A DNA stretch of 63,953 nucleotides, the filler included, from Dirinaria sp. TL-2023a (Eukaryota): assembly GCA_051941275.1 (NCBI GenBank). It is 6 parts of 6 records of this genome, joined end to end, with 100 filler letters (N's around TTAATTAATTAA, not from the genome) between each part and the next. Parts side by side here need not be neighbours in the genome. Positions count along the whole stretch, not along the records: positions 1 to 10,592 come from JAVEBF010000921.1; 5 more parts are not named here. One strand, 5' to 3'. The notes under the pieces were generated by a model, which saw nothing but the letters and a program-made list of their open reading frames with translations, ran no database searches and was not told where the DNA came from. This document shows, piece by piece, positions 1 through 53,403 of this stretch; within the stretch, counting starts at the first letter, position 1, and every line of letters begins with the position of its first letter. Both the position numbers and the translations under genes were made by a program.

Positions 1-4
1 AAAG

Positions 5-36
<32 letters not shown>

Positions 37-2910
37 CTACTGTAAAGTATCGCTCGAATTTTAATTTTAGAGTACATCTCCACAGATGGGGCATCTGAGT
101 TCGTGTTCGTCGCAGGATACTGTTCCTTTCGAAGTATATTCAGGTAGGTGCTCTCTGGAGCGATCTTCAGGCGTATTTTGTTATAGAGAGAGAAATCGTT
201 TGATCTATGAGGGTTTTCCTTTATGAGTTTAAAATACCGCGGTACTCGAGTATGTACGAGAGCATGGTTGTCTAGCTCACCATGAGCTGGATTTCGAGGC
301 GGAATTTGGCATTTATCTTCTGTCGAGTCTCGAAGCTCTTGTTCAGTACCGCAATTGAAGATCTATTTAGACAGTGTTCATTGTAGTTGCCCAGTGGATT
401 TGCTTGAATTTCCGTCTGAGACCGATTTTGATCCGAGGTCATTGTTCGAGACTCTATTGAAGTAGATACGCCTTTTAATACTGTCATTTAAAGCACATTT
501 AGACGTTCTTCATTGTACTTTCCTTTCGCTTTCGCTTAGCTGTCTGTCTGACACCTATTCTGGATTAATACCATTTTCGGAGTATCTGCGTCGAGGTAGC
601 TGCGCTTTTTAATGCTGTCATTAAAAGCATGTCTCTACACTCTTCGTTATAGTTCCCCCGGGACTTTGCCTGACTATCTGTCAAACAGCGGTTCATAGTC
701 GATGCCAGTATCCAAGCTTCCTCATTGTGGCCCGCAAGTTAGAGGTAAGCTCCTGCCGTTCCTGAGAATTCTTATCCACAGTTTGGAGTAAGGGATATAG
801 CTTGTGCCGGTCATCGAGGTTTGCAGGTAGTCTAAATGCGATGATGCTGCTAAAAATAGAGCTCTGTCTAGAGTAAGAACTCACTGGATCATTGAAGGAG
901 TGGAGAAGGAGCGGCTCGGAGCGTAGTTTTGGTTAAAGAAACACAAAAGTAACGTCCGCCTAAGTTTTCCATTTGATTTCTTGGCCAAGGTTTATGGAGA
1001 ATATTCACCGGGACGATTTACTCAATTTGAAGTCGAGCTTCAATCGATACAGCTTCGATAGTAAACTCGGTTGTCACCAGCACAAGCTCACTTCGCCGGG
1101 GTTGGCGTCCGTCAAGTCCAATCCACTGGGGCCAATAGAGCAATAGTACATCAACGATTAGAAGATTCTCGTCATGTAATTGATATGAATCCCCTTCGTT
1201 CTTTCGCGTGACTAATAATTTCCTCCTTGGTGTGGCTTCCATGGTGCTTCACGACCATGGTAGCTAGCATGGTGACTCTTTGCTAAGTGACATCGCAAGC
1301 CGAACAACCTTTGATCCTCGCCAGGGATTCAGCAATAGCTAGAAACTTGCCTCTGACGTAATAATTTGAACATCCTGTTTAGATGAAGCTGGCTACAAAT
1401 ACGCAGCGAGTAAGACTTATGACCTATGAGATTGGTAATATCAGTCAGTAGATCCACCATGGCAGATGTGAGCTCGATAAAGCGCTTTAGTCTCCGGTAT
1501 TGTGGTATGGCTGATCTTTAGGTTGCCTTGTATTGAATTGAAAGGCATGCTATGCTTGACTCTTACAATTATCGAGTCGTAGAAAGAAAACATGAGTTTA
1601 TTTCCGGTGCGAGAGCAGTTGTCACAGTGTCATCCCATCCAACAGTCGAAGGTAAACAAAAGAGAAGAATATATGTGGAAAGCAGAGGATGGCCGTTCAT
1701 CATTATAGAGTATAGTAATAATTAGAAGTATGATATGCCGTTGAATGATTGAAGCGTCGGTAGCCTGAAAAGAAACTAACATATGATACGACGAGGAACA
1801 GTGAATACTCAGGGTTGAGCAACTAGAAAAAGAAGAAGCTTTGTGACCGGACAAGATTTTTGAACATGCGGCCAAGCGACGCGCTAAATTCGAAGCAGAA
1901 GCAAAAGATATTGAGAAATGTTAATTGCGCTTCGCTGAAGCTGGTGAAGACTTTAAAGTTCGACAAGGGTACTTTTATCTGTGGTCAATCAATGAGTTGA
2001 GTTTCGTAAAGGATGGTAGCTTGAGCTTCTCTCATGGACGAAAGGCCACAGTGAATGCGAAGTAAAGATCAATGGCTGTCTTGAATCAAGTTGCACAGGG
2101 CATCGCTTCAGCCCAAGTGAAGAGATTATCAATGCCCATGATCCTCAAAGATCGTCCGTAAGGAGTAGGCAGACAAAACGAGTAGATGTCAGAGTAGGCA
2201 ATTCATTGCCGTGAGTTCTCCTAAAGTTGGCGACGATATTGAGAAGGTGAGAAGTTGAGTCGTATTACCAGTACATTTGCAGTCGTGGTGTAGAAGCCCA
2301 TTCAACTTCCCACTGAAAAAGTTGTTGCTTTTTATTGAAGCACAGAGCACCGTGTTTATACGGGCTCACCACAAGATCTCTAGCCGTTAGCTTCCTTTTT
2401 CAGTATTCTACAGCCACTTTGCGATATCCAATCAATGCAACGTGCCATGATGATTCCTCTAGATGCATTATAGATGTATTCGAATCTCGAAAGGACTCTT
2501 TTGCAGATGCAAAACCTCTCAAGATGAACATTATCCGAAGGTAGGTTTGGGATAAGTGAATTACTTGCCCAAAGCTTGATCGCATTCTGGATCCACGTGC
2601 CATGGGGTCTTTGCGAGGAATTCGCTAGACCGATAGCGGCTGAGAGATATTTGGCGTTGCTACAGCTGTCATGCTTATAGTCCCCATATTGAGCACGGAT
2701 AATATGCAGCTTTTAACTAGCAAGTACCTTTTTGCGTTCGAGGAGCAAAACCGGCCCGGAGCGTCTATTGCCGCTAGCGACTCAACTCTTGCGCTGTGTT
2801 CGCGGTTGGCTATTCCTATGTCCAGAGCAATCTCAGTTCCACGATCGCAATTCTTTCGCTTTTCGAGGCGAGCTTTCTAGTCTCCCTGTTTGAATAGACC
2901 TACGGCCTTT

Positions 2911-5024
2911 TCAGACTCCGATCTCTGCGTGGATTGAATTAATGAAGCGACATCGGTCAATCACTTTCTCCCATGCCAGGGCTTGTTCTAGCTTCGATAG
3001 TCGGACATGAGCAGACTGGTTAATTATTCTTGCGGCACCACTTCCATATGGGCCGCCAAAGACGTACAAATTCAACTCTTCCGGGTACTCGCTATTCAGT
3101 GTTTGACCGGCTTGTCCTGCATATGCATCAGGCCATTGAGTGGGGACTCGGCCGTGAGAGAACGAAGGATCTCCCGTATGAGCGAACGCTGCGGCACTTC
3201 CGCTCAGCAACGAAGAAAGAGCTTCCTGGGCTAAGCTGTTGTCGCCCCCAAACGTTACGTTTTCATTCATGAAATAAGGGATATCGGATAGATGGCTAAC
3301 GCGCCATTGAGGAACACCCATCTCATGGAATATTGGCTCGAACTTGGTCTGATTCATATCGTAGAGACGGACGCTTGAGCCTCCGTGTCGCGTGTATTGC
3401 CATGTGAAATCTATGACCGGACATGTAAACCATATGTCGCGATTCATTTGCGCTGCCCTGTAGTATTGTGCCGTAGCGTCTTGGCCTGGGCGGACCAGAT
3501 GGGTGAAGTCGGACTCCGGGTACAGAGCGAGAAGACTCCGTATCGAAGACTGTGAGAGACCAAGGACGAATGTACCGAAACTTGCAACTACGGAAGCGTC
3601 GTCTGTGATAGTTGGCTGGGCATACCAGGCGCCATCGTTGGTCACCCAGGAGCCTATGATGGGTATGCCTGAAAATGGTAAGATTCACAGTCTTTGCACT
3701 GGGTTGGAACAATAAACCTTTTACGAAACTGCCCTGCCGCAGTAGCAAAGACGGCCGGGTGGCAATATAGTCACCGTCGTAGCTAGGATAGAAGGCAAGC
3801 TCGCCAAAAGGTGGTCTTATTCTCCGGGAAAGCTCTACAGATGTGTTCATCAATTTTTCAAGCGGGACGCTTCGCAGACAGGCCAGCCCCGCCTCTGGAG
3901 CCGAATGATTTAGCGTACAGCCAACAGAGTTGGCAACTGTGGCGGTATTGTTCGCCACGAGGCCACTCATTGTATTGAAGTTGGTCCCAGAAGCTCCTGA
4001 CATCATCCTATGCGTCTGTCAGCTTCAGCTTCTTGTAGTCAGTATCTCTCTTACATCGCTTTTTGGAATGGGACTCCGCGTTTGCCTGAATAGGAAACGA
4101 GGTGTAAAGCGATTGAGGCAGCTCCGACGCTTTGACCCACGGCAACAACATTATCTGGGTCACCACCAAAAGCTGCAATATTGTCGTGAACCCCTATTCA
4201 ATGTATTAAGCTTAGCAAGACATATCTTGACAAACCCATATCAACTCACATTCAAACGCTGCGCGCTGGTCTCTTAGTCCAACGTTGCCTTGCGTTGTAT
4301 ACTCTAGAGCTCTCATGTTGGCGAAACCGAATACTGTGTTTCGTGTTAATCCGCGAGGATCATCTCTTAGGATTTGGACAATTACGTACTGCCCAATCGA
4401 TAATTGATCCCCACATAGATTACAGGCTGGCCGTTCAAATTGGCTTGATGCAAAAGGCCGTCCGGAGTATAGAGTTGATCTGCAGCGCTTCCTAGCGCAT
4501 CTCCACCTGGACGTCTTTAGTACCTGAAATGTCGGTCTTGGGTGATGGCTCTGCGCACCACCATGTATCCACACTAATACCGGCAACCTCGCTGATTGTT
4601 GTGTGCCAGATATTCGAGCAATCCTCAGGCTGAGGCAATTTTCACTCACATTGGTAATGGGACTTGTGAAAGGCAGTGGAGGTCCTCCCGTCGCTTGCGG
4701 ACACCAGGCGCCAGGCGTCGTAGCATCGACGACGGTGCCTGGTTCGGGTAGGTATGGGACTGGAGGAGCGAAGCGATTCTGGCCCGACGTATCCTCTGCG
4801 TAGAAAATATTATGGAATTGATCAATGCCATTTTCCGTGACTCCGTGATATGACACCTGGTTTTGCGCGTTCTTCACAATTGGAAGTGAGCCGTTCAATA
4901 TGCCGGACAGAGGACCGAAAAGAGGGATATAGCTGCGATTCACTCTCATAGCTATGAGAACAACCAGCGCAGCGAGAAAGGTGAAAGCCCAAGCGTAACG
5001 GCCTGGGCTTAGGTGAGAAGCCAT
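2911..5024 (-). CDS. Type-B carboxylesterase/lipase (COesterase family), multi-exon, N-terminal hydrophobic anchor/signal
   Basis: Exons give RFAPP, SENCLSL, PVLVWIHGG, NVGLRDQRAAFE and WVHDNIAAFGGDPDNVVAVGQSVG (nucleophile elbow GxSxG near 4120-4140), plus VSHLSDIPY (catalytic His region). Split over ORFs 4212-5024, 3323-4006 and 2911-3645 by introns. Confidence 0.9.
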
Positions 5025-6063
5025 CCCTTAAGAGACCAGGAAATTAGGAATAGAGCAAATTATTGGAACCTCAAACACTCAAGCGACAAGCTTTTGGCGA
5101 CACATGGCAATGGGCGAATAAAGGGCGAATCCAGTCGGTACCTTGGGAGTTGTGGATGGTTTTATGGGCTAGGATATTCTCAGATCCTCCGACTGGATCC
5201 ACCCGCTGGGGCAATGGCTGACTGGGTTTCATTGCGACCACTCAGCCTCCAGTATCAGGGGCGTTTCGGCGGGTTGATGCTGTGGCCCGCGTGCGATCGT
5301 GCATAATTACGGTTATTTACGGCGGTAATTTTCATTAGTGTGGGCTGTGCATGCACAATTGCTTCCTTTCGCATATTGTACGCGTAACCTGTATTCCGTA
5401 CTTCGTACTAGTAGTACCCCGTACCAAAGGAGAATTCCATTCCATGCTCTTGGTCGGCAACTCTTCAAAACATTTCACTGCCTTCTCCTCAATGTTTTGC
5501 ATGCGCACAACGATAATATCGCTCAGGGGTTCGAGTATGAGCTTGGATTCGTAAAATGGCTCTCCTCTACATACATACGGAGCTGCATGAACTCAGTACG
5601 AGGCAAAGCTACGCTGAAGCGTAGCCTGTACACTTCCATAGTATACTAGCATTAACCTATCATAACCATCTTCATGTTCATCCCTATCATCATCCCCATC
5701 ATCATCCACATGCGCCGCTATTTCTCCTTTCTCAGCGTCCAGCCAAGATTTACAGCGAGCAAAGAGCCCAATCATCACGAGCTTATCGACTGCGTGTAGG
5801 ATGCCTCGAACCCATGTTCCCACTCACTGCTGGTGCACTAGACCATTGAGGTATCATGAGAGATGTTGCTCTGTACGAGAATGCCATGTTCCGTCGGTGA
5901 CTGTAAGTGGGGGTACAGATTTTGGGACATGGTCGAGATGGTCGTTTCGATGCTAGGGTCGAAACGTTTCGCCTGAGGGTAAGGTGGCTTCGCATGCCTA
6001 AGAATCTGAATCAGCACAAGTGCCTTGATGGTCGTTGCAAGACAAATAGATGGTCTGGCCGAC

Positions 6064-7424
6064 TCACAATTCTTTGAAACTTGAGGAGCTATCACTGTCG
6101 GAATAAGGTAACCGGTGTTTTTTGTTCGCTCGCAGCCAGCTGAAATTCAGCAGTCTCTTTTGACTTTCGAAGGATTTAAGGCTGCGAGGAATTTTGGTGG
6201 CAATGGGAAGCAACGTCGGCAGACATGCGCACAGCAGAGCCACGTTCAATTCAATCAGGCTCCACAATAGGAAGATCGTAAAGTCCTCTAAACCGCGTCA
6301 TCAGTGAATGGCCCTCATAACTACCTTATCTACTTACGAATGAAGTCGGGGTTCGATTCTTTCTCTGTTGGGAAAATAGTCAGCGCTAAGAACTTATGAC
6401 GTTCGAAGCACACGAGCGTACCGTAAGACGTAACTAGGTACGCAACCATGCGCGCAATGCCAGCACCGATAGCACTTTGATCAAATCAGCATAAAGGTCA
6501 TCGGTATAGAGGATAATGGTACTGACAAGAAACCAACGAGGAACATAGCACTGATTGCAAGCTTCCTTCGAACACTCATTTGGAGCGACCAGATCTAGAA
6601 GTAATCAGCATGGAGTGCGTCCAGAAGGTCTCAATCGGCACGTACCATCGGCATCGGCATAGCAATGATTAAGATATCAGTGATGATATCAGTCGCAGTG
6701 AACACGGTCAGCATGTTCAGCGTATTTGAACATTGCGTCAAGAAGATTCCGATGGGCGCCCAATTAAGGCTCCAGTCCAATCCACACTGGAATACTGTTG
6801 CGAAAAAGAAAGCCGTGCTCCATGCAATCGTAACGCCAATCATGACCCAGCTAATGATGTTGAAGGTCTGAACATGGCCAAAGATTCGACGCCACAGGAA
6901 TAGGATCGACAATTTGATCAATCCGAAAGCAATCTTTTCCGTGGTTTGGAAGCCGTACTTGTACTGCGTGCCCAGGTTGTAAGACACCATGGCCACAAAG
7001 ATTTACACAATACGTACCTTCTCAGCCTGATGCTCTGTTTCTGTCGAGATGGGCCAGTCATTGACGACGGGCGAGTGGCCAGTGATGACATGCTGCGCGC
7101 AACCTATCACAGCTTCAATCAGTCACTGGGAAAATGAACAGGTTTTCAATCACGTACCAGCCAGAAACATCATGTTAAGGGCAATGACAAAGACCTTGGC
7201 AAGGCATATGGTTAGTCGCTGCATGCATGTAGGACTGCGGCACTCTTGAAGATTCCACGTACCAAAGAAGCAGCAGCTAACCAGTCGTCCGCCTGAAACT
7301 GTAGGCCTTTAAATCTGCGGGCACAGAAACGTAGAACCACGGCGGTCGACGAGGTGATGGAAAAGATGATACACATCGCGATGAGACCACCGCGATCATC
7401 AACTTTCGCGAAGGAGTAACCCAT
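6064..7424 (-). CDS. PTH11-like / fungal rhodopsin-domain integral membrane protein, multi-exon
   Basis: Exons encode VVLRFCARR..ADDWL, GLIKLSILFLWRRIF, TDIITDILIIAMPMP and WSLIELNVALLCACLPTL, which are hallmark motifs of this family. The 3' end is approximate. Confidence 0.85.
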
Positions 7425-9138
7425 GATGTGCTATTGTCTAGAGCTTTACAACATCGATATAGATAGAACTGTTTTGGACGGAATAATCATGAATTTCCAC
7501 ATTGGAGATTTGGAAAATACAATGAAATGCGAACAGCAGCTTGAGAATAAGGCAACTTATTTCAATCGGTACCTTATGAATCACTAGCTTGCGAGAGCCA
7601 GGTACTACAGCTATGTCCTTGACAGGCATGTTGGCCCCCATCAAGCACGTGGAACTACCAAAAGAGCATGGATCATCATGATCTTCGCCAAACTGTCAGA
7701 GAACATCCCAACAGCGCGGCCAATGTGGTGAACATTGCCAGAGAAAGAGGAAGGCCTAGGTAATGTCCCTGGAATGGCTGTTTTTGCAATCGAATCACTT
7801 TTGAGCGCCTTAATTGTGAATGCCGCTACTGAACTTGTGTTACGGTGGACGGGAAACACAGAGACCAAATATTTCGCGTGTGCCCCAACGAGAACGAAGA
7901 ATTATGTTTCAGCTTTACGCATTGTGACGGAATCCGCTTGTACTGTAGGACGATGTCGCGGTAGAAGAGGACGGATAAAACAGGGTTAAACTACGGCGTT
8001 ACGGGAGTCCCTGAGAGGCTGGAAATTAGTTCTGCCCGCTGCCGTTATCCGGGCCGGTCCTGAGACCGCAAGGGCCGAGCGGACAGCGCCATTAAAAGCC
8101 TATAGAGGCCACAGTACACTCCAGCCCCCTTGTTATGAGGAATATTCGCAATAACACTCTGCAAAGCATGCCGCTTCAAGCCTTCCAATGAACCAGCAGC
8201 TCAACTTTTCGTCTACTGAATCCATTCTGATTCCGAAGACGGTACGGCGCGCTGAGTGCAGCGTTCCTACCCCTTTAATGACCGACCGACCGACCAACCG
8301 ACCGACCGATTCCCGCAGTTGGTCGGTCTTGTGTTCTTATTCTTGTGCGATGTAGCCAAAAGTGATGATATTTACAGTGGCTCGTCTCCCTTTCTTTTCT
8401 ATTTAATTACACTCCTTGCTCCGAAAAACAGTATCAATACCGAGCGAGGAGTGTCTGGATAGGCTACATACGGAGATCTAGTAAAAGGCTTCATCCGCCG
8501 AGCACCTTCCTGAAAAGGCATCTCTTCCGCCCCCAGTCTTCTGATGTGCAGCAACCTTGATCTCTAGCTGCTTGCCGGATCGAGGATTTGTTTATTTATA
8601 TGCGCCACCAATCGAAGATGTGCGCTTGCTCGCGATACAGTGCACAAATCTCTGATCCTCCAACATGGCGAATGCAGACGATACAAAAATGAAGTCAACG
8701 TATGCCCGATGACGTGCGTGATAAGGTATTTACACAGTCGTGATACATGCATCCTTTTCGCAAGAGCTCGGGATCGGCAGTGACACTGCCCCATGTTCAG
8801 AGGATGGCTGGTTACAATTGAGCCACGCTTGCGTGTGGACATGACGTCTTTCATCCTGCCGAAAGAGGAGGATGATATGTACGAAGCTGCGCAGCCGCAC
8901 AGCGAGATGCACGTCACAGGGGTTGTAGTTGTTGGAGGATGGAAGTCAAATAATGCGTAGATCAATCGACAATCGTTTGATGTCTCGCATGGGCGCAAGA
9001 ACCATATTGATTCGAGAGAATTCGAATGACCCTTTCTGCCCTGTACCTGGGGGAAGACTGAAACCCCACAGCAAACCTAGCACGAGTTTGTGGTAAAACG
9101 ATGTTATGCTGATAAAGATATTACGCAATAATACAACA

Positions 9139-9993
9139 ATGGAAAAAGAAAGGCTGTTGGAGAATGACGAAGACCCCACGCCGACTGAAAACGTCAAGGT
9201 AGAAAGACGACAGTCTACTCGCTCTCATATCACTCCATTCAGACTATCTGCATTTCTCTTCCTCTGCTCTCTCTGCCTCAATGGCGCTTTGGCTTGGAAA
9301 CTGTTTCGCTCGCGGAATAATAAACCTCCAGAAATCTCCCAACATGGTAAATCCCCCTTACCCATCCAAATCCACAAAACCCCCCCCAGCAACAAATCCA
9401 ACTCATACTTAAAAAAAAAAAAAAAAACAGCCTCCCTAACCCGCACCCTCCCCCAACCCTACTACGCCGAAACCCCCTTTGGCGGGAACCCGAACACGAC
9501 ACTCGAAGCATCGCTATGGTACTCCATAGACATCGACAGCGGCGTGATCAGCCTGCCCGACAGCTACACCACCTCGCACTCCCTCCAGCCCGCGCAACGC
9601 TTCCCCTGGGACCGCACACGCGGGATCTACATCGTGCACGGGTACCACAACCTGCACTGCCTGAAAATCATCTACATCGCCATGCACGAGTGGCGGACGG
9701 GGCGGGCTCAGAGCCGGAAATGGAGACACATCAGCCACTGCTTCGATGCGCTGCGGAGGCAGGTGCTGTGCGATGCGGACGACACGCCAAGGGCGGTGCG
9801 GAAGGGATTCGAGGGGGTGAGTGGGATCGGGCAGGAGAGGGTGTGTAGGGATTGGGGACGGTTGGAGGAGTGGGCGAGGGGGAATACGGCGTGCTATAAA
9901 AGGCCGGAACCGCCGGTGGAAGGGATGCGGAATATTGAGAAGTATAGCCATTGTCCTGAGGGCGCGGGGTATGTGGTTCCCGATGATTTGTGA
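9139..9993 (+). CDS. DUF3328/UstYa-family oxidase (dikaritin RiPP tailoring enzyme type)
   Basis: N-terminal single TM helix (FLFLCSLCLNGALAW), motifs HGYHNLHCLK and HISHCFDALRRQVLCDADDTP, then GQERVCRDW. A probable 84-nt in-frame intron at 9347-9430 (GTAAAT...AAACAG) removes the poly-Lys artefact. Confidence 0.93.
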   Translation: MEKERLLENDEDPTPTENVKVERRQSTRSHITPFRLSAFLFLCSLCLNGALAWKLFRSRNNKPPEISQHGKSPLPIQIHKTPPSNKSNSYLKKKKKTASLTRTLPQPYYAETPFGGNPNTTLEASLWYSIDIDSGVISLPDSYTTSHSLQPAQRFPWDRTRGIYIVHGYHNLHCLKIIYIAMHEWRTGRAQSRKWRHISHCFDALRRQVLCDADDTPRAVRKGFEGVSGIGQERVCRDWGRLEEWARGNTACYKRPEPPVEGMRNIEKYSHCPEGAGYVVPDDL

Positions 9994-10199
9994 TGGTTTT
10001 TTTAAATGATGGGCGATGAATTGAAAGGTTTTTGTTTTTTGAGGTTTCGATGTGTGGATGACAATAGAGAAGCGTGTAATATACCAACATGTGTTGTATA
10101 GCATCTATATGTCCTAATATTACATTCGATGCCACATCTTAATAGAACATCCCCCAGAAAAAAACATCAAAATTAAAATCCTCCTTCCTGACGAAAGAA

Positions 10200-10592
10200 T
10201 CAAAAGCCATCAGCAACATCAACGCCCTCGCCTTCCCTCCTCACCACCCTCTTGAACCCATCAGCCACATCCACGCCCTCACCATCTCTCCTCCTGAACC
10301 CGTCCGCAACATCAACGCCCTCCTCTCCTCTCCTGACCACCCTCTTAAACCCATCCGCTACATCTACTCCTTCATCATCTCTCCTCCTGAACCCGTCCGC
10401 AACGTCAACGCCTTCTCCCTCCCGCTTTATTTTAAACCCATCAGCCACATCCACGCCTTCGCCTTCCCGCTTGAATTTAAAGCCGTCCGCGACATCTACC
10501 CCTTCCCCTTCCCGCTTGAACTTGAAACCGTCCGCGACATCCACGCCTTCGGTGTCGCGTGGGATGGGGGATGTTCGGATCATGGGGTTTAC
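10200..10592 (-). CDS. Kex2-processed repeat precursor peptide (putative RiPP precursor), 8 x EGVDVADGF; 5' end probably truncated by contig end
   Basis: Frame is open to the gap (..VNPMIRTSPIPR). Eight identical EGVDVADGF units are separated by KFKR/KIKR/RRR/KRVVRR, with a stop directly after the last Phe. Nucleotide differences between cores are synonymous in this frame. Adjacent to the DUF3328 gene. Confidence 0.88.
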   Translation of the reverse strand, partial: VNPMIRTSPIPRDTEGVDVADGFKFKREGEGVDVADGFKFKREGEGVDVADGFKIKREGEGVDVADGFRRRDDEGVDVADGFKRVVRRGEEGVDVADGFRRRDGEGVDVADGFKRVVRREGEGVDVADGF

Positions 10593-10692
10593 NNNNNNNN
10601 NNNNNNNNNNNNNNNNNNNNNNNNNNNNNNNNNNNNTTAATTAATTAANNNNNNNNNNNNNNNNNNNNNNNNNNNNNNNNNNNNNNNNNNNN
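10593..10692. other. Artificial contig linker (N + TTAATTAATTAA + N)
   Basis: 100 nt with a six-frame stop motif, identical to four other linkers. Confidence 0.98.
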
Positions 10693-13415: not shown

Positions 13416-16400
13416 ATGGGCTCCGAAATACGACTGCGGCCCTGCACAAGGCCCGCCTGCAAAAGTCGCCCCGATGATCCTACCACTGGCTCATGCTGCG
13501 ACGGTATGCTCATTGTCCTGCTTCATTTGGATTTGTATTGATGCCTCATAGAGCACTGTCTCAAGACCATCGCGCAAACCACAGTCAAGCACAGTATCAG
13601 CAGTCCTGACGATGCGGGTCGATCAAATAGCATTATTGGAGTGGAACGATCTCTGGCACAATGGAAAGCAGCGCTCGAGCGAGCAGAGTGTTTGTGCACC
13701 CAGATGCTCAAAATGGGATTCCCTTCCTGCTGTACTACACGCGCTCCTGAAGCGTCTCCTACACAATGGCATGCAATGGCAACTGCAACGAAATGCAGCT
13801 CCAATACAAGCCTCGAAAGCACCCAAAAGCTGGCGTCGGAGGCTAGAACTAGCTGTGCACAGGCATGCTGCTCTTCAACCACTGCAGAGGTAGGTTGTTC
13901 CTCCACATCTGTCCGGAATACCTGTTGTTCCTCTCCTTGCAAGGCCACGAGTACCCAATGCCCCACCCCAGCGTCTACTACCAAGGCCAGCTGCCTTCCT
14001 ACTTCCAATATCAACGCGCCTGAGCCTCAGACCGACCACCGCAGTGGTTATCTCGAGCAGAATCAATATTTGGTCCGTCACCAAAGCCTCGTGCCTTCCC
14101 AAATTGATATCGAGAGAGGCACTGTGGAGCAACATGCTGTAGTCCATATCTCCGGCATGACATGTACTGGATGCGAGCGGAAGCTTCAGTCCGTCCTCTC
14201 CAGTATCGCCGGTGTTCGCAACGTTAAAACCAGTCTTGTTTTGGGTAAGGCAGAATTTGATGTTGATGCAGGGTTGTCCATCACCGAGGTCGCATTGATG
14301 CTGGAAAGAAAAACTGATTTCAAATGCGTTGTTCCTCGGGAAGGCCATCAACTCGAGGTAATCATGCCAAAACGACCGTCCTCTCGAACTGTGAGGCTAG
14401 GAACCACGGTGTTGGCCCCAGAGAAGGATTCTGCAATGGTCACTCAAGGTCTGGCCGGCCCTGGCTATCCTCCTGGAGTGGATCGAATTGAGATCATCGA
14501 TGGCAATGGCCGAGCGTGGAAGGCTAAGACAGATAACAACAACCTAAGGAAATGTTTGACTTGCAAGGCGTTTGCTCCCAAGGGGAACAGGCATAATGCC
14601 CGTATAATGTACAACCCTCGTGTAGTTGGAGCTAGAGATTTATTGGAGAAAGAATTCGGCGCTCCATTGTCACTAGCTCCGCTCAGTTCCAACCACCTCA
14701 CTGCTACTGCAAAGGACCACCTTCATCAAACACTTTACATGACAATACTGTCAGCAGCTCTAACGATACCTGTTCTCGTTATGGCTTGGGCTCCACTCCC
14801 CCCTCGTAAAGTCGCATTTGAGTCTAGTTCGCTTGTGCTAGCAACTCTAGTGCAATGTCTCATTGCAGGCCCATTTTATCCGAAAGCTCTTAAGGCTTTA
14901 CTGTTTTCTGGTATGATCGAAATGGACCTTCTGATCGTCATCAGCACTACTGCAGCGTATGTCTACTCAGTGGTAGCTTTTGTCTACGATATCAAAGGTC
15001 AGCCATTGCCTACCGGAGGATTTTTTGAGACTAGCACTCTTTTGGTCACACTCATAACGTGTGGTCGACTTGCAAGCGCCTACTCTCGTCGAAAGGCCGC
15101 GGACTCCGTTTCAATTCAAGCGCTACAGCCTTCGACGGCACTTCTATCTGAAGATGGAGATGAGAGAATTATAGATATTCGCGCCTTTCAGTATGGCGAT
15201 TTATTCAAGGTCCCATCAGACAGCGTCATTCCTACAGACGGTACTGTTGTTGCTGGCCGAACCGAAATCGACGAATCAATGATTACAGGGGAAGCAATTC
15301 CGGTGCCCAAATCCATTGGCTCCCAAATCACGGCTGGTTCTGTGAACGGGCCAGGCCCGGTTCTAGCTCGGTTGACGAAGTTGCCTGTTGATAATACTAT
15401 TAGCAGGATTGCACGCATGGTTGATGAAGCCAGACTATCGAGACCCAAAGTGCAGGAGACCGCCGATCGAGTAGCCTCTTACTTTGTGCCCTGTATCCTT
15501 GCCGTCACCCTTGCAATCTTTGCAATTTGGGTTGCTGTGGGGATTGCGTTGCGACACTCGTCCAACTCAGATGCGATAGTTACGGCAACCACCTACGCCC
15601 TCGCGGCATTGATTGTGTCTTGTCCTTGTGCTATAGGGCTCGCTGTACCAATGGTGATAGTCATCGCCAGCGGAGTTGGGGCCAAGAATGGCGTGATTTT
15701 CAAGTCGACAGAAGCAATTGACAAGTCCAGAAACGCTTCTCACGTTGTCTTTGACAAGACAGGTACCCTCACGCAAGGGAAGTTTGTCGTAGTAGAGGAG
15801 ATCTATCCGGCTGATGATCGCAATCGAGCAGCTTCAATAGCTCTGCAATTGACTTTGAGAAGTAAACACCCGGTTGCCAGTGCTCTAGCAGCGCATCTTG
15901 AGTCCTACAATAATATTCCCTTGAAACTGACAAACGTTTCGTCAGTCATTGGAAAAGGTATGGAAGCAAATTTCGAGGGTCAGCTGGTGCGAGGCGGCAG
16001 TCCCTTCTACGTGGACGCTGCCGAAGACTTCCAAGTCCAACGCCTCCAGTCGGAAGGTTTGACCGTATTCTGCATTCGCCATGGATCGGCCATTGTAGCA
16101 ATCTACGGTCTCCGCGACTCTCTCCGTACCGATTCTGCAGCTGTCGTCTCTGCGCTGCAAGCCCGAGGTCTCTCCGTCTCCATCGTCAGCGGCGATTCCA
16201 CTACCGCGGTGGAACGACTGGCAACAGAGCTTCATGTACCCCTTTCGCACGCCAAAGGGCAGTGTGCTCCTGAAGATAAAGCTCGCTATATCACCTTGCT
16301 CTCCGCTACGACAACCCAGCACAGAAGCAAAGCCCCTACTGTCACCACCATCTTCTGCGGCGACGGTAGTAACGACGCTGTGGCTCTCGCTCAAGCCGAC

Positions 16401-16703
16401 ATCGGCATCTACATGGCTGGTGGCACCGAGATGGCGAAGAATGCTGCCGACGTTGTACTGACGCAGCCGGCGCTGGGTGGTCTCCTAGCCGCCATAGATC
16501 TTTCGCGCGCGTCCATGCGGCGGGTTTATTTTAATTTCATTTGGTCATTTGTCTACAATCTCTTCGCCATTCTTCTGGCTGCCGGCGCGTTCGTGACAGT
16601 GCGAATAGCTCCCGCGTACGCTGGGCTTGGAGAGCTTGTCAGCGTGTTACCAGTCATTCTGGTGGCGATGCAATTACGATGGATGAGGTTTCGATCAACA
16701 TAG
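13416..16703 (+). CDS. P1B-type heavy-metal-translocating ATPase, PCA1-like (Cu/Cd) with Cys-rich N-terminus
   Basis: HMA motif GMTCTGC, TGE, TM CPC, DKTGTLT, HP and GDGSND. Exon 1 (13416-13503) and an intron (13504-13551) join in frame to the 13641 ORF, giving GSCCDEHCL. Confidence 0.93.
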
Positions 16704-21280: not shown

Positions 21281-21380
21281 NNNNNNNNNNNNNNNNNNNN
21301 NNNNNNNNNNNNNNNNNNNNNNNNTTAATTAATTAANNNNNNNNNNNNNNNNNNNNNNNNNNNNNNNNNNNNNNNNNNNN
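21281..21380. other. Artificial contig linker
   Basis: N + TTAATTAATTAA + N. Confidence 0.98.
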
Positions 21381-31968: not shown

Positions 31969-32068
31969 NNNNNNNNNNNNNNNNNNNNNNNNNNNNNNNN
32001 NNNNNNNNNNNNTTAATTAATTAANNNNNNNNNNNNNNNNNNNNNNNNNNNNNNNNNNNNNNNNNNNN
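31969..32068. other. Artificial contig linker
   Basis: N + TTAATTAATTAA + N. Confidence 0.98.
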
Positions 32069-37306: not shown

Positions 37307-40121
37307 TCACGTCTCCCCCGACACTTCGAGCTCCTTGACATATTTCACGAAAGCCTTCTTATGAACCATGCCAGCAAACTTTCCGTCTTGGAGCACGCAA
37401 ACATAGCGAAGACCAAGTTTCACAAAGCATTGGAAAACCAGATCCATAGGAGAGTGGATGTCCAAAGCGACAGGAGCGGGATCAATGTACGGTGTAAAGT
37501 CTGTGGGGTCATGCACTCTTTCCTCGTCTTCCTCGGTGTCCTGCCAAGTAGTATTTGAGACCATCAAGCATAGTGAATGCTCTTCGTTATCCAATTTGTC
37601 CAAGGCGAACTCAAGATCAGGCGCTGGGATTAAGCCTATGAGAACTCCGTGTCGCAGAATTGGCAAGCCACCATCTATTTCACCAGCATCATGAAGGCGC
37701 TCAAGCTTCGATCTTAAGACTTTTGCTGGCACCAGAGGCGAATTCGAGATCTCAATGACTCGGTGAGGTCTGACCCTTGGCGTAATGTCTCCCAAATCAG
37801 TGGTGAAGATGGGCCTAATCTTGTTGTCTAGCATTGGATACGAGTTCATGTCAGTAAGCAGGTCCTGCGCAGTCATTAGCTATGTTGAGCACGCAGTCCT
37901 TCCTTCGCGGGTTAATTACATAGATACTCAACGGCTCAAGGGCATCAGCCGTCCATTTTGCGACCAGCACTGCAAGCGAGAACGGTAAGACGTGGTTCAA
38001 GCTTCCGGTCAGCTCGAAGAGTATGACAGCAAGAGTAACCGATAACCTCGTTACACCGCACATAGTAGCGCCGGCCGCAACCAGCGCATAGACACCTGGT
38101 GTCACGCAGCGCTCAGCGCCTCCATCAGCCGGGCAGCTAGCAAAGACCCCGGCATTGGGGAAGCTGACGGTAAGGAACTGGACAAGATGGCCAACGATGC
38201 GGCCCATTAAGCCCCCAACAACCATTGACGGCACATAAATACCAGCAGGAACTTTGATGCCAAAGGTGATGGTAGTGAGCAAGGCTTTGACGATGAATGC
38301 GACGCAAAGATACCGCACGACAGCCATGATTTCATCGCCGGATTGAGGGCACAAGCCGGATCGATCAGTATGCTCGCACGGGCTAGCAATCTCGAACAAA
38401 AGCTCTGTGACAGCAAGTTTGGTGTAGCGGTTCCAAAAACTTGTGACCCCTGTAATCACCGCAACAAGGGCGACTTCCAGAATTGGCCACCTCTTGATAA
38501 CAGGTATGCGTCGAAAGGTGCGTGCCCAGACTCCCGAGGCTTTGATGAATAAAGCGCCCAAAGCGCCACCGAGTATGCCGAGTAGTATGAAAACAAATAT
38601 CTCAAAGAATTCCCAGTCCGTCACGTACCGGACCTCGAATATTACAATCTTGCCTGTGCCGTAGGGATCCAAAAACTTCACAGACAAAGCAGCAGCGATA
38701 CAACAGAAGAATGTTCGGAACAGAGTTTTAGCTGGAAAATAATAGCTGACCTCTTCGAGACTAAATAGCACGCCACCGATGGGAGCACCAAAAGCGACAC
38801 CAACTCCGCAGGCAGCAGCAGCACTGAGCATCTCGCGCCGCTTACCATCGTTGTGGTTGTATTTCGAGAAGACACGACAGGCGATGTTGCCCACACAAGT
38901 TGCAATGTGCACATATGGGCCTTCCTTGCCGAGACTGAGACCTGACGCGATACTGAATACGAGTGCCACGGTCTTGACCACGAGCGTTTTGGCACCAAGG
39001 TAGCCATGGACGACGAAGCCGCTGAGTATGACCTTTACCTCGGCCACTCCGCTTCCAGCAGCGGGATAATATACCATAGCGGATGGTTTCATGGGTGAAG
39101 GCAAGGGCTCTGTCGGACTTATAGCTCCATTGATACTGTAGATATCACCATCGCCCTCGTGCTTGCGATCAGCCCCAAGGTTTTCATCCAAAGTAGTCAT
39201 CGAAAAGGCCGAGGGAATCTCGGTCCTGGTTGTTAATGTGAGCAGGCAAGCCGCCAGAGCGAACAGGACCATGAAGAAGACATATGCCATGAAATCTATC
39301 CACTTTTCTTCCAGACCGGTAGTCTTCATCGCCAGGCCCCAGGTCTGCCAGGCCGGGCATTCCTCTCCTCCATAACAGCATTTCCTCTTGCCAAAGTACC
39401 AGCCTTCTTTGCAATATCCTTCTTTAATATCGAAAATTGCTGTTTCCGTAACATTCACGAAATACGCAATGCATGCTGTGATGCACCCGATGAGGGCCAC
39501 GAGTATCCAACCTTGTGCTCCATCGAACCATGCGTAGAGCCGTCCTCGAATGTCCTTACGCGATCTCAAGTCACGTACCCGAAAGGCGTCTGCAATACTA
39601 TCATGTACCCAGTCCGTGGATGTGAACTGATCGTACCACACCCTCTCATCCGCGAACAAGGACGCCTTCGACTCCGCGAGTCCTGACGAAGTCAGGGCGC
39701 TAGCTATATTGAAACCCCAAGAGTTTGCCCTGGCATGATGTTTCGGTAGACGAATACTCCCTGCCGATGTCCTCCTTGACTCCAACAACCCCACAGTATT
39801 TGGTGCGCTGACGTATGCTCTAGCTCGATGATCAGTGTTGACCAGAAGACCGGAGCGTTCGTCAAGTTGCACGCGCGAAGGTAAACGACTGCGCAGGTCA
39901 AGGTCGGATGTTCTGGCTGAGTGCAGTCTGCGGGCTGCTGTGGGAGAGATAGGACTTCGGTGGCCTGCGTGTGCGGAGAAAGCAAGGCTGTCATCCTCAT
40001 CATCCTCGTCGTCGTTCGTTTGATTTATGGATTGGTAGGATGCATTGGATCGAGGCATGTTAGGGGAGGTAGAAGGGACGGCGAAGCTGAGGCGAAGAGG
40101 TCGAGGTCTAGTGGGCTTCAT
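37307..40121 (-). CDS. CLC-family chloride channel/antiporter (Gef1-like)
   Basis: Signature motifs GSGVAEVK, GKEGP and GIYVP; C-terminal CBS region; intron near 37860-37920. Confidence 0.93.
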
Positions 40122-41141
40122 GTCAGCGGATTGGGAGCATATGAGTCAAACTGGACGATTGAGGAAGCGCCGGAAGAGGTACACCAGCCTTCGTCACCAG
40201 CACAAGAAAGCACGAGACTCAAGCAGGTGGTTATACCTCGGCAAGAAGACACGAGGTCCATTTCAGGCTGAGGCTACCGGCAGGCGCAGATTAGGCATGC
40301 TCGATGAGGCTGAAGCAGGATCACTCTGACGTGACCTTTACGGCGTTTGTTTCTTTTTGGAGCTTCATCACTGCTGCGACAAAGGGGGTGTGAAGAAGGG
40401 GCCGGACTCGGGAAAGAAGCACAGGCAGTGAAGAAACGGTGGGCAGTGCACCAGCTGCTGTTTCACATTTGACTCAAACAGCCGATGAACAATTGTCAGA
40501 CGGACATGTGGGGCCGGGGGGGCTGGGCAGGATGTAGAGGTAAAATCGATACATAGAGTACTTAGTTCTTGTGATTATTTAAGTATTATTATTGTCATGG
40601 TGGGGGATCTGAATATTTGACACTTCTCCATTTCCGTCCGGGTCACTTGATAAGGTAAGGTAGGGAATAATAGGTAGTGCTTACTGCTTGGGTTGTAAGC
40701 GTTGTTGCCGGTCTTTGTTTAGATGGCAAACGGTTCATCTAGCAGGGGGGCGAAGGGGAGCGAGGGGAGCTACGGTTAAAGGCCAAGAATGTGCCTTCTC
40801 ATTCTTTCAACCAATCACAGCTAGAGAGGGTGGCTTGAGCCGACGCGAGCAGATTGGCTTTGAGTAAAGCTGATCATACAACTAACAAGAACGTGAGCAT
40901 CGACTTGTTGACGTATGAAGTAGATGGATCATTTGGAGCATATAGTATCCAAGATAAGGGTAGTGCCTCATTGCAAAACGCCGACATATTACGGATGCGA
41001 GAAGCATGCTGGCAGTAGTCTTCCACTATTACGCTCGACATTTCTGCCTTTGGCGATAGCTTCAGAGCTTCTTCTCCGAATCTAGCCTTTATGCGTTTCT
41101 TCCATGACTGCAGGTAACGCAGAGATTCTCCCGTCGGCCTG

Positions 41142-42650: not shown

Positions 42651-42750
42651 NNNNNNNNNNNNNNNNNNNNNNNNNNNNNNNNNNNNNNNNNNNNTTAATT
42701 AATTAANNNNNNNNNNNNNNNNNNNNNNNNNNNNNNNNNNNNNNNNNNNN
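42651..42750. other. Artificial contig linker
   Basis: N + TTAATTAATTAA + N. Confidence 0.98.
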
Positions 42751-52300: not shown

Positions 52301-53303
52301 CACTGAGCTGTCAATGTTGCAGAAAGACCTTAGCGCGGCACGCCAAAAAGAGACAAATTTCCTTCATCGCGAAGCCACGTATAAAGACAATATCCGAGGC
52401 TTGAAGCAGAACGTCGCTCGTCTTGAACGCCAGGTACATGAGATCGAAGTCTCTCGACTTGCAGTTGACTCTCCGAAATCTTCTATTGGCGGCTCAGCCC
52501 GGAAGAACGAGCTCGTTGAACTTCGCCGGCAGCTTACAGAAGCGCAGCAGAATCTGAAAGACCTTCGTAGCAAGTCCAAAGAAATTGAGCGCTCCCTTCA
52601 GCGCCGCCTCCTGGAGTCAGAACGACAGGCCCAAACCGAAGCCGAAACTTTTGATCAACAACGCGAGCAGCTGGAAGCAGAACTCACAAGTTGCCGCCTC
52701 GAAATAGAATCCCACACGTCGAAGACGTCAACGGACGCAAAAACAATCGTCCGCCTCAGAAGCCGCATTCAGCACCTTGAATCGTCCCTTCAATCCGCTC
52801 GCAACTCCACCGCTGCCGACCACACCATGGCCGAAGAGCGCAAAGACCTGCATGAGATGCTAAAAGACGCCAAGCTCTCCGCCGAGAGCCTGCAGCTCGA
52901 GATCTCCACCCGCCAATCCCTCCTCGACGCCGCTAACACGCGAGAGAAGGACTTGCGCGCGCAGCTGAAACGCATCCGCGAAGAACGCACGCTCCAGACC
53001 CAGAGATCATCGGCTCTCACATCCGAGCTGGAGAACCTCCAAGCCGACTACGAGAAAGCCCTCGAAAGGTTCTCGCGCAAGCAAAAGCAATGGGAAGAGG
53101 AGCGGAAGAAAGTCCGGTTCACGAACATGAGCGTCAGCGAGGGCAACTCGCAGGTCGACCGGGAGCTGGAGAAGCGGCACACGGTCGAGCTGACGGGGTT
53201 GGCGCGACAGATCCAATGGTTGCGAGCGCGGCTGGTCAGGGAGGAAGGGTTCCGGAAGGGGCTGGCGTGGGAAAAGAAATGGTTGACGATGCGGTGTGAG
53301 ATG
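49370..53303 (+). CDS. pcp1: Spindle pole body coiled-coil protein Pcp1/PcpA (pericentrin/Spc110-like), 3' truncated
   Basis: CM1 motif TLREQEN-IINKIEKENFGLKLKIHFLEE, a very long coiled coil, and the start of a PACT-like region (ELTGLARQIQWLRARLVREEGFR) at the gap. Confidence 0.85.
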
Positions 53304-53403
53304 NNNNNNNNNNNNNNNNNNNNNNNNNNNNNNNNNNNNNNNNNNNNTTAATTAATTAANNNNNNNNNNNNNNNNNNNNNNNNNNNNNNNNNNNNNNNNN
53401 NNN
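53304..53403. other. Artificial contig linker
   Basis: N + TTAATTAATTAA + N. Confidence 0.98.

What the first reader, a model, noticed from the sequence alone, without database searches (positions are those of the whole stretch)
9139..10592. Candidate new dikaritin-type RiPP system: DUF3328 oxidase plus 8x EGVDVADGF repeat precursor
Seen in sequence: a membrane-anchored protein with two HxxHC motifs ends about 200 bp from the stop of a convergent gene made of 8 identical EGVDVADGF units flanked by dibasic or tribasic sites. Established: a UstYa/DUF3328 oxidase beside a Kex2-processed repeat precursor is the defining architecture of dikaritin clusters (ustiloxin UstA/UstYa-b, phomopsin, asperipin-2a AprA/AprY, victorin, epichloecyclins). 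Inference: this pair makes an oxidatively modified peptide. The core matches none of the cores I know (YAIG/YVIG, YVIP-type, FYYTGY, GLKLAF), so the product is probably undescribed.
Basis: partly seen in the sequence, partly recalled or inferred. Interest (0 to 1): 0.92.

Follow-up and report, generated by a model that had tools for sequence, protein, structure and literature searches.

The report
Conserved fungal peptide-modification gene pair
A copper-oxidase-type gene sits tail to tail with a gene encoding eight copies of the peptide VDVADGF, and the same pairing recurs in lichen fungi, Penicillium and Xylaria relatives, so it is very probably an uncharacterised member of the known fungal family of ribosomally made, enzyme-modified peptides.

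Summary
Window 9139-9993 (+) encodes a 256-aa UstYa/DUF3328 protein. Pfam PF11807 scores E 1.2e-24 over the full profile. It has one N-terminal hydrophobic anchor, two HxxHC motifs and an 84-nt in-frame intron. 206 bp downstream, convergent, lies a repeat gene (10200-10592, -) with 8 identical EGVDVADGF units separated by KR/RR/RRR sites.

Two corrections. The window is six ~10.6-kb contigs joined by N linkers, so the repeat gene is cut at a contig end and its signal-peptide exon is missing. The pair is also not unique. It belongs to a family with the heptapeptide core [VI]-D-[VI]-A-D-G-F. For 15 of 23 lineages there is evidence of linkage to an orthologous UstYa; the other 8 could not be tested. 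In lichen fungi and Eurotiales a second UstYa paralogue flanks the precursor.

The eight DNA copies differ only synonymously (pS 0.81, pN 0). No paper held in the library names this core. One member is listed, undescribed, in a 2020 bulk catalogue.

Verdict: a real, probably functional dikaritin-type cassette, a new member of a known kind. Its product and chemistry are untested. Interest is moderate; the unusually conserved, tyrosine-free acidic core is the notable part.

The parts
9139..9346 (+). UstYa-A exon 1: cytosolic N-terminus and single hydrophobic anchor (residues ~34-56, nt ~9238-9306)
   Evidence: ATG at 9139 matches the MEKERLL start of homologues P0008 and P0009. The most hydrophobic 19-mers lie at residues 34-56.
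9347..9430 (+). Intron of UstYa-A (GT..AG, 84 nt, in frame, with an A-run)
   Evidence: Its 28 codons are an insertion absent from P0008 (92% identical in the alignment) and from 6 of the other 7 homologues. The sequence was read.
9431..9993 (+). UstYa-A exon 2: lumenal catalytic domain with HNLHC (9646-9660) and HISHC (9727-9741); stop TGA at 9991-9993
   Evidence: Pfam PF11807 at E 1.2e-24 over the full profile. Motif positions. Both motifs are invariant in alignments A2 and A3.
9994..10199 (.). 206-bp tail-to-tail spacer between the two convergent genes
   Evidence: L001 and L002 show the same convergent arrangement with a spacer of about 290-300 bp.
10200..10592 (-). Precursor gene, last exon only (130 codons plus stop), cut by the contig end. 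It has 8 EGVDVADGF units at 10524-10550, 10479-10505, 10434-10460, 10389-10415, 10347-10373, 10296-10322, 10254-10280 and 10203-10229, each followed by K/R-rich sites except the last, which ends the protein.
   Evidence: RNA-library contigs 91% identical cover 10194-10591.
2911..5027 (-). Carboxylesterase-family gene, a neighbour transcribed divergently from UstYa-A. Whether it belongs to the cassette is uncertain.
   Evidence: Pfam PF00135 on three ORF pieces. A COesterase fragment also lies beside UstYa-A in L002.

Best explanation
This is one arm of a conserved three-gene RiPP cassette of the dikaritin type (UstYa-B, precursor, UstYa-A).

The precursor has a signal-peptide exon, which is missing here because the contig ends. 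That exon is followed by tandem units of an acidic spacer, the heptapeptide (V/I)-D-(V/I)-A-D-G-F and basic residues. The proposed route is as follows. The precursor enters the secretory pathway. There the membrane-anchored, lumen-facing UstYa enzyme(s) use O2 to attack C(sp3)-H bonds of the core. By analogy with characterised members these would be binuclear-copper enzymes built on HxxHC(x)nHxxHC. The most likely targets are the beta-carbons of the two conserved beta-branched residues and/or the aspartates, giving desaturation, hydroxylation or a cross-link. Kex2-type cleavage after KR/RR and exopeptidase trimming then release up to eight copies of a modified heptapeptide ending in Phe.

Shown here: the gene structures, the family memberships, the conserved linkage and purifying selection on the core.

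Inferred: copper dependence, the compartment, the processing steps, and the kind and position of the modification.
For: UstYa identity, motifs and anchor come.

The family core was tallied over 110 repeat units from 26 sequences. My filter did not constrain position -7, which is V/I in 108 of 110, or position -6, which is D in 101 of 110. Position -8 is variable (G 47, D 23, N 11...). Position +1 is K/R in 87 of 89 internal units. The protein ends exactly at the core's F in 21 of 26 sequences.

Selection: within the gene pS is 0.81 and pN is 0. Against a 91%-identical RNA-library contig, the 9-aa units show 17 synonymous and 1 non-synonymous (V to I) codon changes, while the spacers show 9 and 4.

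Linkage was seen in 15 of 23 lineages.
- Direct DNA adjacency in 3: the window, L001 and L002.
- Adjacent locus tags in 4: P. verhagenii N7466_007230/007229, Rostrohypoxylon 468784/468783, Parahypoxylon AAE478_007621/007620, and Stereocaulon N7G274_009689/009690.
- One catalogue entry marked 'DUF3328 in vicinity', RYP52811.1.

A second paralogue, UstYa-B, has both HxxHC motifs. It flanks the precursor in L001 and L002. In two Penicillium genomes its locus tag is two away from UstYa-A: N7447_005192/005194 and N7517_007409/007407.

Signal-peptide exons lie upstream of the repeats in L001 and L002.

The enzymology of the family comes from the CctR paper PMC12435403 (abstract and passages): membrane-anchored, lumenal, disulfide-linked homodimer, 2 Cu per monomer at HxxHC(x)nHxxHC, dependent on O2 and on an electron supply.
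Against: No product has been observed. The core has no Tyr, Trp or His, which are the residues cross-linked in ustiloxin, phomopsin and asperipin-2a. Umemura reports Y in 65.6% of the repeats of DUF3328-linked KEPs. No tyrosinase or methyltransferase was found among ORFs of 90 aa or more in window 1-9138, or among the 64 L002 ORFs scanned, which were mostly 90 aa or longer.

The window lacks the signal-peptide exon and the UstYa-B side. Eight lineages could not be tested at all.

Three spacers (KFKR, KFKR, KIKR) would leave a non-basic residue after Kex2 and a basic-residue carboxypeptidase, so a further protease must be assumed.
Confidence: 0.75

Rival explanations
1. The repeat protein is an ordinary Kex2-processed repeat protein that yields unmodified linear peptides, pheromone-like or signal-like as with yeast alpha-factor. 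On this reading the neighbouring UstYa genes act on something else.
For: Most KEPs (78% of 7878) have no DUF3328 neighbour and are thought to be linear (PMC7329392). The core lacks the aromatic hydroxyl used in known UstYa cross-links. The core is far more conserved across classes than RiPP toxin cores usually are, which is what one expects of a signal peptide.
Against: The tail-to-tail adjacency with the same UstYa clade is kept in Lecanoromycetes, Eurotiales and Xylariales. That is 15 of 23 lineages, with none seen unlinked. In Umemura's survey, genes for alpha-factor-type KEPs were not accompanied by DUF3328 genes.
Confidence: 0.12
2. The UstYa enzymes modify a non-ribosomal or other small-molecule substrate, as CctR does in cyclochlorotine. 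The acidic repeat protein would then have an accessory role, for example as a secreted carrier, metal buffer or self-protection factor.
For: DUF3328 enzymes do occur in NRPS pathways (PMC12435403). The repeats are rich in Asp and Glu.
Against: No NRPS or PKS domain was found in the flanks scanned. These were window 1-9138 (ORFs of 90 aa or more) and 64 ORFs over the 20 kb of L002. The dibasic sites, the sharp heptapeptide boundary and the protein ending exactly at the core's Phe all fit a multi-core precursor, not a folded accessory protein.
Confidence: 0.08
3. It is a decaying or non-functional remnant: a pseudogene pair on a fragmentary contig.
For: The precursor is incomplete in the window. 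The assembly is fragmented. The COesterase next to UstYa-A in L002 looks fragmentary.
Against: The truncation coincides exactly with the contig end. Both reading frames are open. Selection on the core is strong. The UstYa keeps every invariant residue of its clade. A 91%-identical copy is present in RNA-library contigs.
Confidence: 0.05

Closest known systems
Asperipin-2a cluster (AprA precursor plus the single DUF3328 enzyme AprY), Aspergillus flavus
   Same: It is a minimal cassette: a Kex2-processed multi-core precursor next to DUF3328 enzyme(s), with no tyrosinase. AprY is reported to be copper- and O2-dependent and dimeric (cited in PMC12435403).
   Different: The core here has no Tyr. 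None of the 100 named or unnamed hits to UstYa-A carries the name of a characterised enzyme.
Ustiloxin cluster (UstA, UstYa, UstYb, UstQ tyrosinase, UstM methyltransferase)
   Same: Two distinct UstYa paralogues accompany one repeat precursor. The core lies inside a longer Kex2 fragment and needs further trimming (recalled).
   Different: No tyrosinase or methyltransferase was found. The core is a heptapeptide ending in Phe rather than the tetrapeptide YAIG/YVIG.
Phomopsin cluster (PhomA, PhomYa-e)
   Same: UstYa-family proteins there are reported to install dehydro-Ile and dehydro-Asp (recalled from Sogahata et al. 2021; not read here). That is a precedent for oxidising exactly the residue types conserved in this core (V/I and D).
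   Different: The phomopsin core (YVIPID type) starts with a Tyr used for the macrocycle, and that cluster has five UstYa genes and a tyrosinase. None of this was seen here.
Victorin (vicA, core GLKLAF)
   Same: It is a Tyr-free core that ends in Phe and is modified by DUF3328 proteins (recalled).
   Different: The core sequence is unrelated. Victorin needs a copper amine oxidase and chlorination (recalled), and no such gene was seen in the flanks scanned.
Kex2-processed repeat proteins (KEPs) catalogued by Umemura 2020 (PMC7329392)
   Same: The architecture fits the KEP definition. One family member, RYP52811.1 of Monosporascus sp. mg162 (= P0121), is listed in Table S2 with 'DUF3328 in vicinity'.
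   Different: It is listed there as type 0, stand-alone with no homologues in that data set. It is not described further, and the multi-class family and its heptapeptide core are not recognised.
Lichen UstY-type RiPP clusters, clans R1 and R2 (Pasinato and Singh 2025, PMC12048977)
   Same: These are HxxHC-bearing UstYa homologues in Lecanoromycetes.
   Different: That survey found no repeated-core precursor in the two clans it studied (passages read). Here the repeated precursor sits directly beside the enzyme.

Membership tests
UstYa / DUF3328 (Pfam PF11807) | Significant match to the family profile over its full length | tested here: met
   E 1.2e-24, 87.9 bits against a cut-off of 25, profile 3-220 of 220.
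UstYa / DUF3328 (Pfam PF11807) | HxxHC(x)nHxxHC motif, the copper site in CctR | tested here: met
   HNLHC is at unspliced ORF residues 170-174 and HISHC at 197-201. Both are invariant in A2 and A3. The role of the motif comes from PMC12435403.
UstYa / DUF3328 (Pfam PF11807) | Single N-terminal transmembrane anchor with a lumenal C-terminal domain | tested here: met
   There is one hydrophobic segment at residues 34-56, with a Kyte-Doolittle mean of about 1.7. Topology itself was not tested.
UstYa / DUF3328 (Pfam PF11807) | Copper- and O2-dependent catalysis | not testable with these tools
   Inferred from CctR, ApnU and AprY (PMC12435403).
Dikaritin-type RiPP cluster | Precursor with tandem repeated core peptides flanked by Kex2 (KR/RR) sites | tested here: met
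   8 identical units with KR, RR or RRR in all 7 spacers.
Dikaritin-type RiPP cluster | N-terminal signal peptide on the precursor | tested here: inconclusive
   It is missing from the window because the gene runs off the contig end at 10592. Relatives have it as a separate first exon: L001 MYFLKSYLVLLASSALLATALP..., L002 MHFIKSPLVLLAGSAILAIAAP.... It is also present in P0002, P0003, P0005, P0114 and P0120. These were judged by eye; no signal-peptide predictor was run.
Dikaritin-type RiPP cluster | Precursor gene clustered with DUF3328 gene(s), and the linkage conserved | tested here: met
   The gap is 206 bp here. Linkage was seen in 15 of 23 lineages, with none seen unlinked and 8 untestable.
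Dikaritin-type RiPP cluster | Tyrosinase and methyltransferase in the cluster (early five-gene definition, as quoted in PMC12048977) | tested here: not met
   No such Pfam hit was found among ORFs of 90 aa or more in window 1-9138, or among the 64 L002 ORFs scanned. Later definitions drop this requirement, as for asperipin-2a (PMC12048977).
Dikaritin-type RiPP cluster | Aromatic (Tyr) residue in the core serving as cross-link partner | tested here: not met
   The core [VI]D[VI]ADGF has Phe only, with no Tyr, Trp or His in 110 of 110 units.
Dikaritin-type RiPP cluster | A post-translationally modified peptide product | not testable with these tools
   This needs expression and mass spectrometry.
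Kex2-processed repeat proteins (KEP) | Secreted protein with 3 or more repeats separated by dibasic sites | tested here: met
   Repeats and sites are shown. Family member RYP52811.1 is in Umemura's KEP table. The signal peptide is seen only in relatives.

The most novel reading that the evidence does not exclude
The cassette makes a small modified peptide that is conserved across three classes of Pezizomycotina and acts as a shared fungal signal or housekeeping metabolite, not as a lineage-specific toxin. Its two UstYa paralogues would carry out chemistry not yet described for the family. One example is joining the two conserved Asp carboxylates to the tertiary beta-carbons of the two conserved Val/Ile residues (ester cross-links); another is a double desaturation of a Tyr-free core.
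Probability: 0.15. Interest if true: 0.8.

Novelty: new member of a known kind. Interest (0 to 1): 0.5.

Why it matters
Only a handful of dikaritin-type peptides have known structures, and almost all use a tyrosine cross-link. This family is different in two ways. Its core is acidic and tyrosine-free, and it is almost invariant from lichen fungi to Penicillium and Xylariales. RiPP cores usually vary freely. That conservation points to a conserved target or signalling role.

The family also offers a clean minimal system of one precursor and two enzymes for asking what else the newly defined copper-dependent DUF3328 enzymes can do.

It bears on a point left open for lichens as well. The 2025 survey found UstYa homologues widely but no repeated-core precursor in the two clans it studied (PMC12048977).

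Carriers appear to include culturable, genetically tractable Penicillium and Aspergillus species, so the hypothesis can be tested directly.

Tried and rejected
- Whole-genome search: no genome is held for this window, so the missing 5' exon and the UstYa-B side could not be sought in the same assembly.
- tblastn of UstYa-A and UstYa-B against the other five pieces of the window found nothing but the gene itself. A six-frame scan for ADGF/VDVA found only one unrelated ADGF at 39079.
I repeated it with the single window protein, which gave 2 confirmed loci out of 588 pattern matches.
- RNA runs. Four runs of one sample and one study of a lichen metatranscriptome were laid. X1 and X2 laid nothing. 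X3 and X4 gave contigs only over 10194-10591 at about 91% identity. These come from a relative, not this strain. An RNA library can hold DNA, so this is only a weak hint of expression. The lack of cover over UstYa-A says nothing.
- PDB by sequence: no relative was found (best E 0.63), so no structural comparison was attempted.
- Paper searches. 'VDVADGF' and five variants, matched anywhere, gave 0 papers. Searches on DUF3328, dikaritin and UstYa gave no paper on this core.
- Umemura 2020 supplements: 'ADGF' gave 0 hits, because the tables hold accessions and not sequences. The accession search found RYP52811.1 but not ROW00561.
- Earlier findings of this scan: nothing relevant.
- Long hits to the precursor (for example P0109, P0111, P0113 and P0115, at 30-35% identity and 701-5108 aa) and P0112, P0131 and P0136 were set aside as unrelated or doubtful acidic or other repeat proteins. 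They were not counted in the family.
- A Ste13-like stepwise dipeptide removal of the acidic spacer (EG-EG, DD-EG) fits this window. It was rejected as general, because relatives have 7- or 8-residue spacers.
Full report
WHAT IS THERE

The window is not one stretch of genome. It is six pieces of 10592, 10588, 10588, 10582, 10553 and 10550 bp joined by N44-TTAATTAATTAA-N44 linkers. They look like contigs of a fragmented assembly sorted by length. The finding lies at the very end of piece 1 (1-10592), so nothing beyond 10592 is a neighbour. No whole genome is held for the window.

THE ENZYME GENE

On the + strand an ORF starts at ATG 9139 and stops at TGA 9991-9993.
- It matches Pfam UstYa (PF11807, DUF3328) at E 1.2e-24, 87.9 bits, over profile positions 3-220 of 220.
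- An alignment with eight homologues shows that 28 codons are an insertion. They are absent from the closest relative P0008 (256 aa, 92% identical in the alignment) and from six of the other seven. The seventh, P0011, has an unrelated insertion at the same place. The 84 nt at 9347-9430 start with GT and end with AG. This is therefore an in-frame intron and the mature protein has 256 residues.
- It has one hydrophobic segment (residues 34-56) and the two motifs HNLHC and HISHC.
- Both motifs are invariant across the clade and in the paralogue described below.

THE REPEAT GENE

On the - strand, 206 bp from that stop and converging on it, a frame is open from the contig end (10592) to TGA at 10200-10202.
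- It reads ...IPRDT followed by eight identical EGVDVADGF units and ends on the last Phe. The spacers are KFKREG, KFKREG, KIKREG, RRRDD, KRVVRRGE, RRRDG and KRVVRREG.
- The eight 27-nt copies differ at 2-8 positions (mean 5.1). All nine codons vary, and no difference changes an amino acid.
- That is pS 0.81 on 6.33 synonymous sites against pN 0 on 20.67 non-synonymous sites. The peptide, not the DNA, is being conserved.
The one caveat is that the gene is cut by the contig end and has no start codon or signal peptide in the window.

RELATIVES OF THE PRECURSOR

- A word-indexed search found 7 small proteins with the same repeats.
- An exhaustive phmmer search of 1.84 billion representatives found 33 hits. 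After reading 16 of them, I accept about 17 as family members and set the long or divergent repeat proteins aside.
- Named members come from Stereocaulon virgatum and Fulgogasparrea decipioides (lichen fungi), Penicillium verhagenii, Cytospora chrysosperma, Monosporascus sp., and the Xylariales Biscogniauxia, Rostrohypoxylon, Parahypoxylon and Xylaria curta.

A tally of 110 repeat units from 26 sequences gives the following.

| Position relative to the final Phe | Result | Constrained by my filter? |
|---|---|---|
| -8 | variable (G 47, D 23, N 11, S 9...) | no |
| -7 | V/I in 108 of 110 | no |
| -6 | D in 101 of 110 | no |
| -5 | V/I/L | yes |
| -4 | A/S/G | yes |
| -3 | D/E | yes |
| -2 | G/A | yes |
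| -1 | F | yes |
| +1 | K/R in 87 of 89 internal units | no |

The protein ends exactly at the core's Phe in 21 of 26 sequences. The conserved core is thus the heptapeptide [VI]-D-[VI]-A-D-G-F with Phe as its probable C-terminus.

In two metagenome loci the repeats are preceded by a short intron and a separate first exon that encodes a typical hydrophobic signal sequence. That is the part missing from the window.

IS THE LINKAGE CONSERVED?

Direct adjacency on DNA.
- In both, an orthologue of the window's UstYa converges on the precursor about 290-300 bp from its stop. The orthologue is 68% identical over the C-terminal 109 residues.
- In both, a second, distant UstYa gene lies about 1.5-2 kb upstream of the precursor. 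I call the two UstYa-A and UstYa-B.
- With the window, that is 3 of 3 DNA loci with the same tail-to-tail arrangement.

Adjacent locus tags between precursor and UstYa:
- P. verhagenii N7466_007230/007229
- Rostrohypoxylon terebratum 468784/468783
- Parahypoxylon ruwenzoriense AAE478_007621/007620
- Stereocaulon virgatum N7G274_009689/009690 (here with UstYa-B)

Shared contig length. This is inference, not seen adjacency.

Catalogue entry. The Monosporascus member RYP52811.1 is marked 'DUF3328 in vicinity' in Umemura's Table S2.

In total, 15 of 23 lineages show linkage. For the other 8 (P0001, P0003, P0004, P0006, P0108, P0118, P0128, P0134) no test was possible, and none was seen unlinked.

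UstYa-B orthologues occur in Parmeliaceae, Lepraria, Stereocaulon, Penicillium, Aspergillus and Paecilomyces.
- In P. robsamsonii and P. concentricum the UstYa-B locus tag is two away from UstYa-A: N7447_005192/005194 and N7517_007409/007407. That leaves one gene between them, presumably the precursor (inference).
- In three Aspergillus species the two paralogues share a contig length.
- UstYa-B has its own anchor and both HxxHC motifs, is only 20-24% identical to the UstYa-A orthologue P0008, and lacks its Cys-rich tail.

EXPRESSION

Four RNA-seq runs from one lichen metatranscriptome sample hold a small share of the stretch. When laid, two of them give contigs covering only 10194-10591 at about 91% identity.
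- This is a related fungus, not this strain.
- Of the 31 codons that differ, 26 are synonymous. In the 9-aa units there are 17 synonymous changes and one V-to-I change; in the spacers there are 9 synonymous and 4 non-synonymous.
- This supports selection on the core and hints at transcription. RNA libraries can contain DNA, so it proves neither.

HOW IT MOST LIKELY WORKS

The CctR study (PMC12435403; abstract and passages read) shows the following for DUF3328 proteins. They are membrane-anchored enzymes facing the organelle lumen. They are disulfide-linked homodimers. They bind two coppers per monomer at HxxHC(x)nHxxHC. They use O2 and electrons to activate C(sp3)-H bonds. The family is credited with hydroxylation, halogenation, macrocyclisation and isomerisation.

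The protein here has every sequence feature of that description. I therefore infer this route:
1. The precursor enters the secretory pathway.
2. UstYa-A, and UstYa-B where present, oxidise the core.
3. Kex2 cuts after KR/RR.
4. Exopeptidases trim the acidic N-terminal spacer and the basic tail.
5. Up to eight modified heptapeptides are released per molecule.

Which bonds are made is unknown. The residues under the strictest constraint are two beta-branched residues with tertiary C-beta-H bonds, two aspartates and the terminal Phe. From recall, not read here, UstYa proteins of the phomopsin pathway make dehydro-Ile and dehydro-Asp, which would be a precedent for desaturation of just these residue types. 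Beta-hydroxylation, or a cross-link from a carboxylate to a beta-carbon, are alternatives.

The spacers KFKR and KIKR imply a protease beyond Kex2 and a basic-residue carboxypeptidase. That is usual for dikaritins; the ustiloxin core also lies inside a longer Kex2 fragment (recalled).

COMPARISON WITH WHAT IS KNOWN

The cassette meets the working definition of a dikaritin-type cluster: DUF3328 enzyme(s) plus a Kex2-processed multi-core precursor. It fails two features of the older, narrower definition.
- No tyrosinase or methyltransferase was found in the flanks scanned.
- There is no Tyr in the core.

It resembles the minimal asperipin-2a cluster most in gene content, and victorin in having a Tyr-free core that ends in Phe (recalled).

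None of the 100 listed homologues of UstYa-A, at identities down to about 41%, bears the name of a characterised enzyme. No solved structure is related by sequence.

NOVELTY

- The core string and five variants occur in none of the roughly 8.4 million papers and preprints searched.
- Three topical searches found no description of this family.
- One member is in Umemura's 2020 bulk catalogue, as a stand-alone KEP with a DUF3328 neighbour and without further comment.
- The 2025 lichen survey reports UstYa homologues widely in Lecanoromycetes but no repeated-core precursor in the two clans it studied (PMC12048977; abstract and passages read).
- Subscription-journal papers are not in the library, so an undetected description cannot be excluded.

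I class this as a new member of a known kind. Predicted KEP+DUF3328 pairs are common, at 1758 in Umemura's survey, which tempers the interest. What stands out is the near-invariance of a Tyr-free acidic heptapeptide across three fungal classes, together with a fixed pair of UstYa paralogues.

SCORES

- Interest: 0.5.
- Confidence that this is a functional RiPP cassette whose UstYa enzyme(s) modify the VDVADGF core: 0.75.

Noticed in passing
window 10593-10692, 21281-21380, 31969-32068, 42651-42750, 53304-53403: Five N44-TTAATTAATTAA-N44 linkers divide the window into six pieces of 10592 to 10550 bp in descending length. The window is a concatenation of separate contigs, so features on different pieces are not neighbours.
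   Followed up: yes
window 2911-5027 (-); L002 11642-12739 (+): A carboxylesterase-family gene (PF00135) lies on the far side of UstYa-A, both in the window (about 4 kb away) and in L002, where it is directly adjacent and only profile positions 215-302 and 409-495 were detected. A gene call P0157 (218 aa, PF00135) also shares 78% identity with 41% of the UstYa-B query. This may be conserved synteny, or the gene may be a cluster member.
   Followed up: partly
window 6064-7002 (-): ORF pieces match the fungal rhodopsin domain (PF20684, E 3e-20 and 1.6e-5). They lie between the carboxylesterase and UstYa-A and represent an integral membrane protein of unknown role. No counterpart was seen in L002.
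   Followed up: no
L001 501-6000: A 5.5-kb stretch of 14-29% G+C with no ORF of 70 aa or more lies directly beside the UstYa-B gene. It looks like an AT-rich (RIP-like) block bordering the cassette.
   Followed up: no
L002 17207-18164 (-) and 19462-20259 (+): A 2OG-Fe(II) oxygenase (DIOX_N plus 2OG-FeII_Oxy) and a metacaspase (Peptidase_C14) lie 7-9 kb beyond UstYa-A in L002. It is unknown whether they belong to the cassette, and the corresponding region of the window shows neither.
   Followed up: no
window 13542-16703 (+), piece 2: An uninterrupted 1053-codon ORF encodes a heavy-metal (copper-type) P-type ATPase with HMA domains. It is on a different contig, so no linkage to the copper-enzyme cassette can be claimed.
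   Followed up: no
window 37851-40145 (-), 47058-48512 (-), 49973-53303 (+): The other pieces carry ordinary fungal housekeeping genes: a CLC chloride channel, SGT1 and a centrosomin-like coiled-coil protein. This is consistent with a filamentous ascomycete genome.
   Followed up: no
window 10146-10644 (+ strand frames): Two long open frames on the + strand overlap the precursor repeats. They are by-products of the stop-free repeat. The - strand frame is the one supported by homologues and by the third-position pattern of substitutions.
   Followed up: yes
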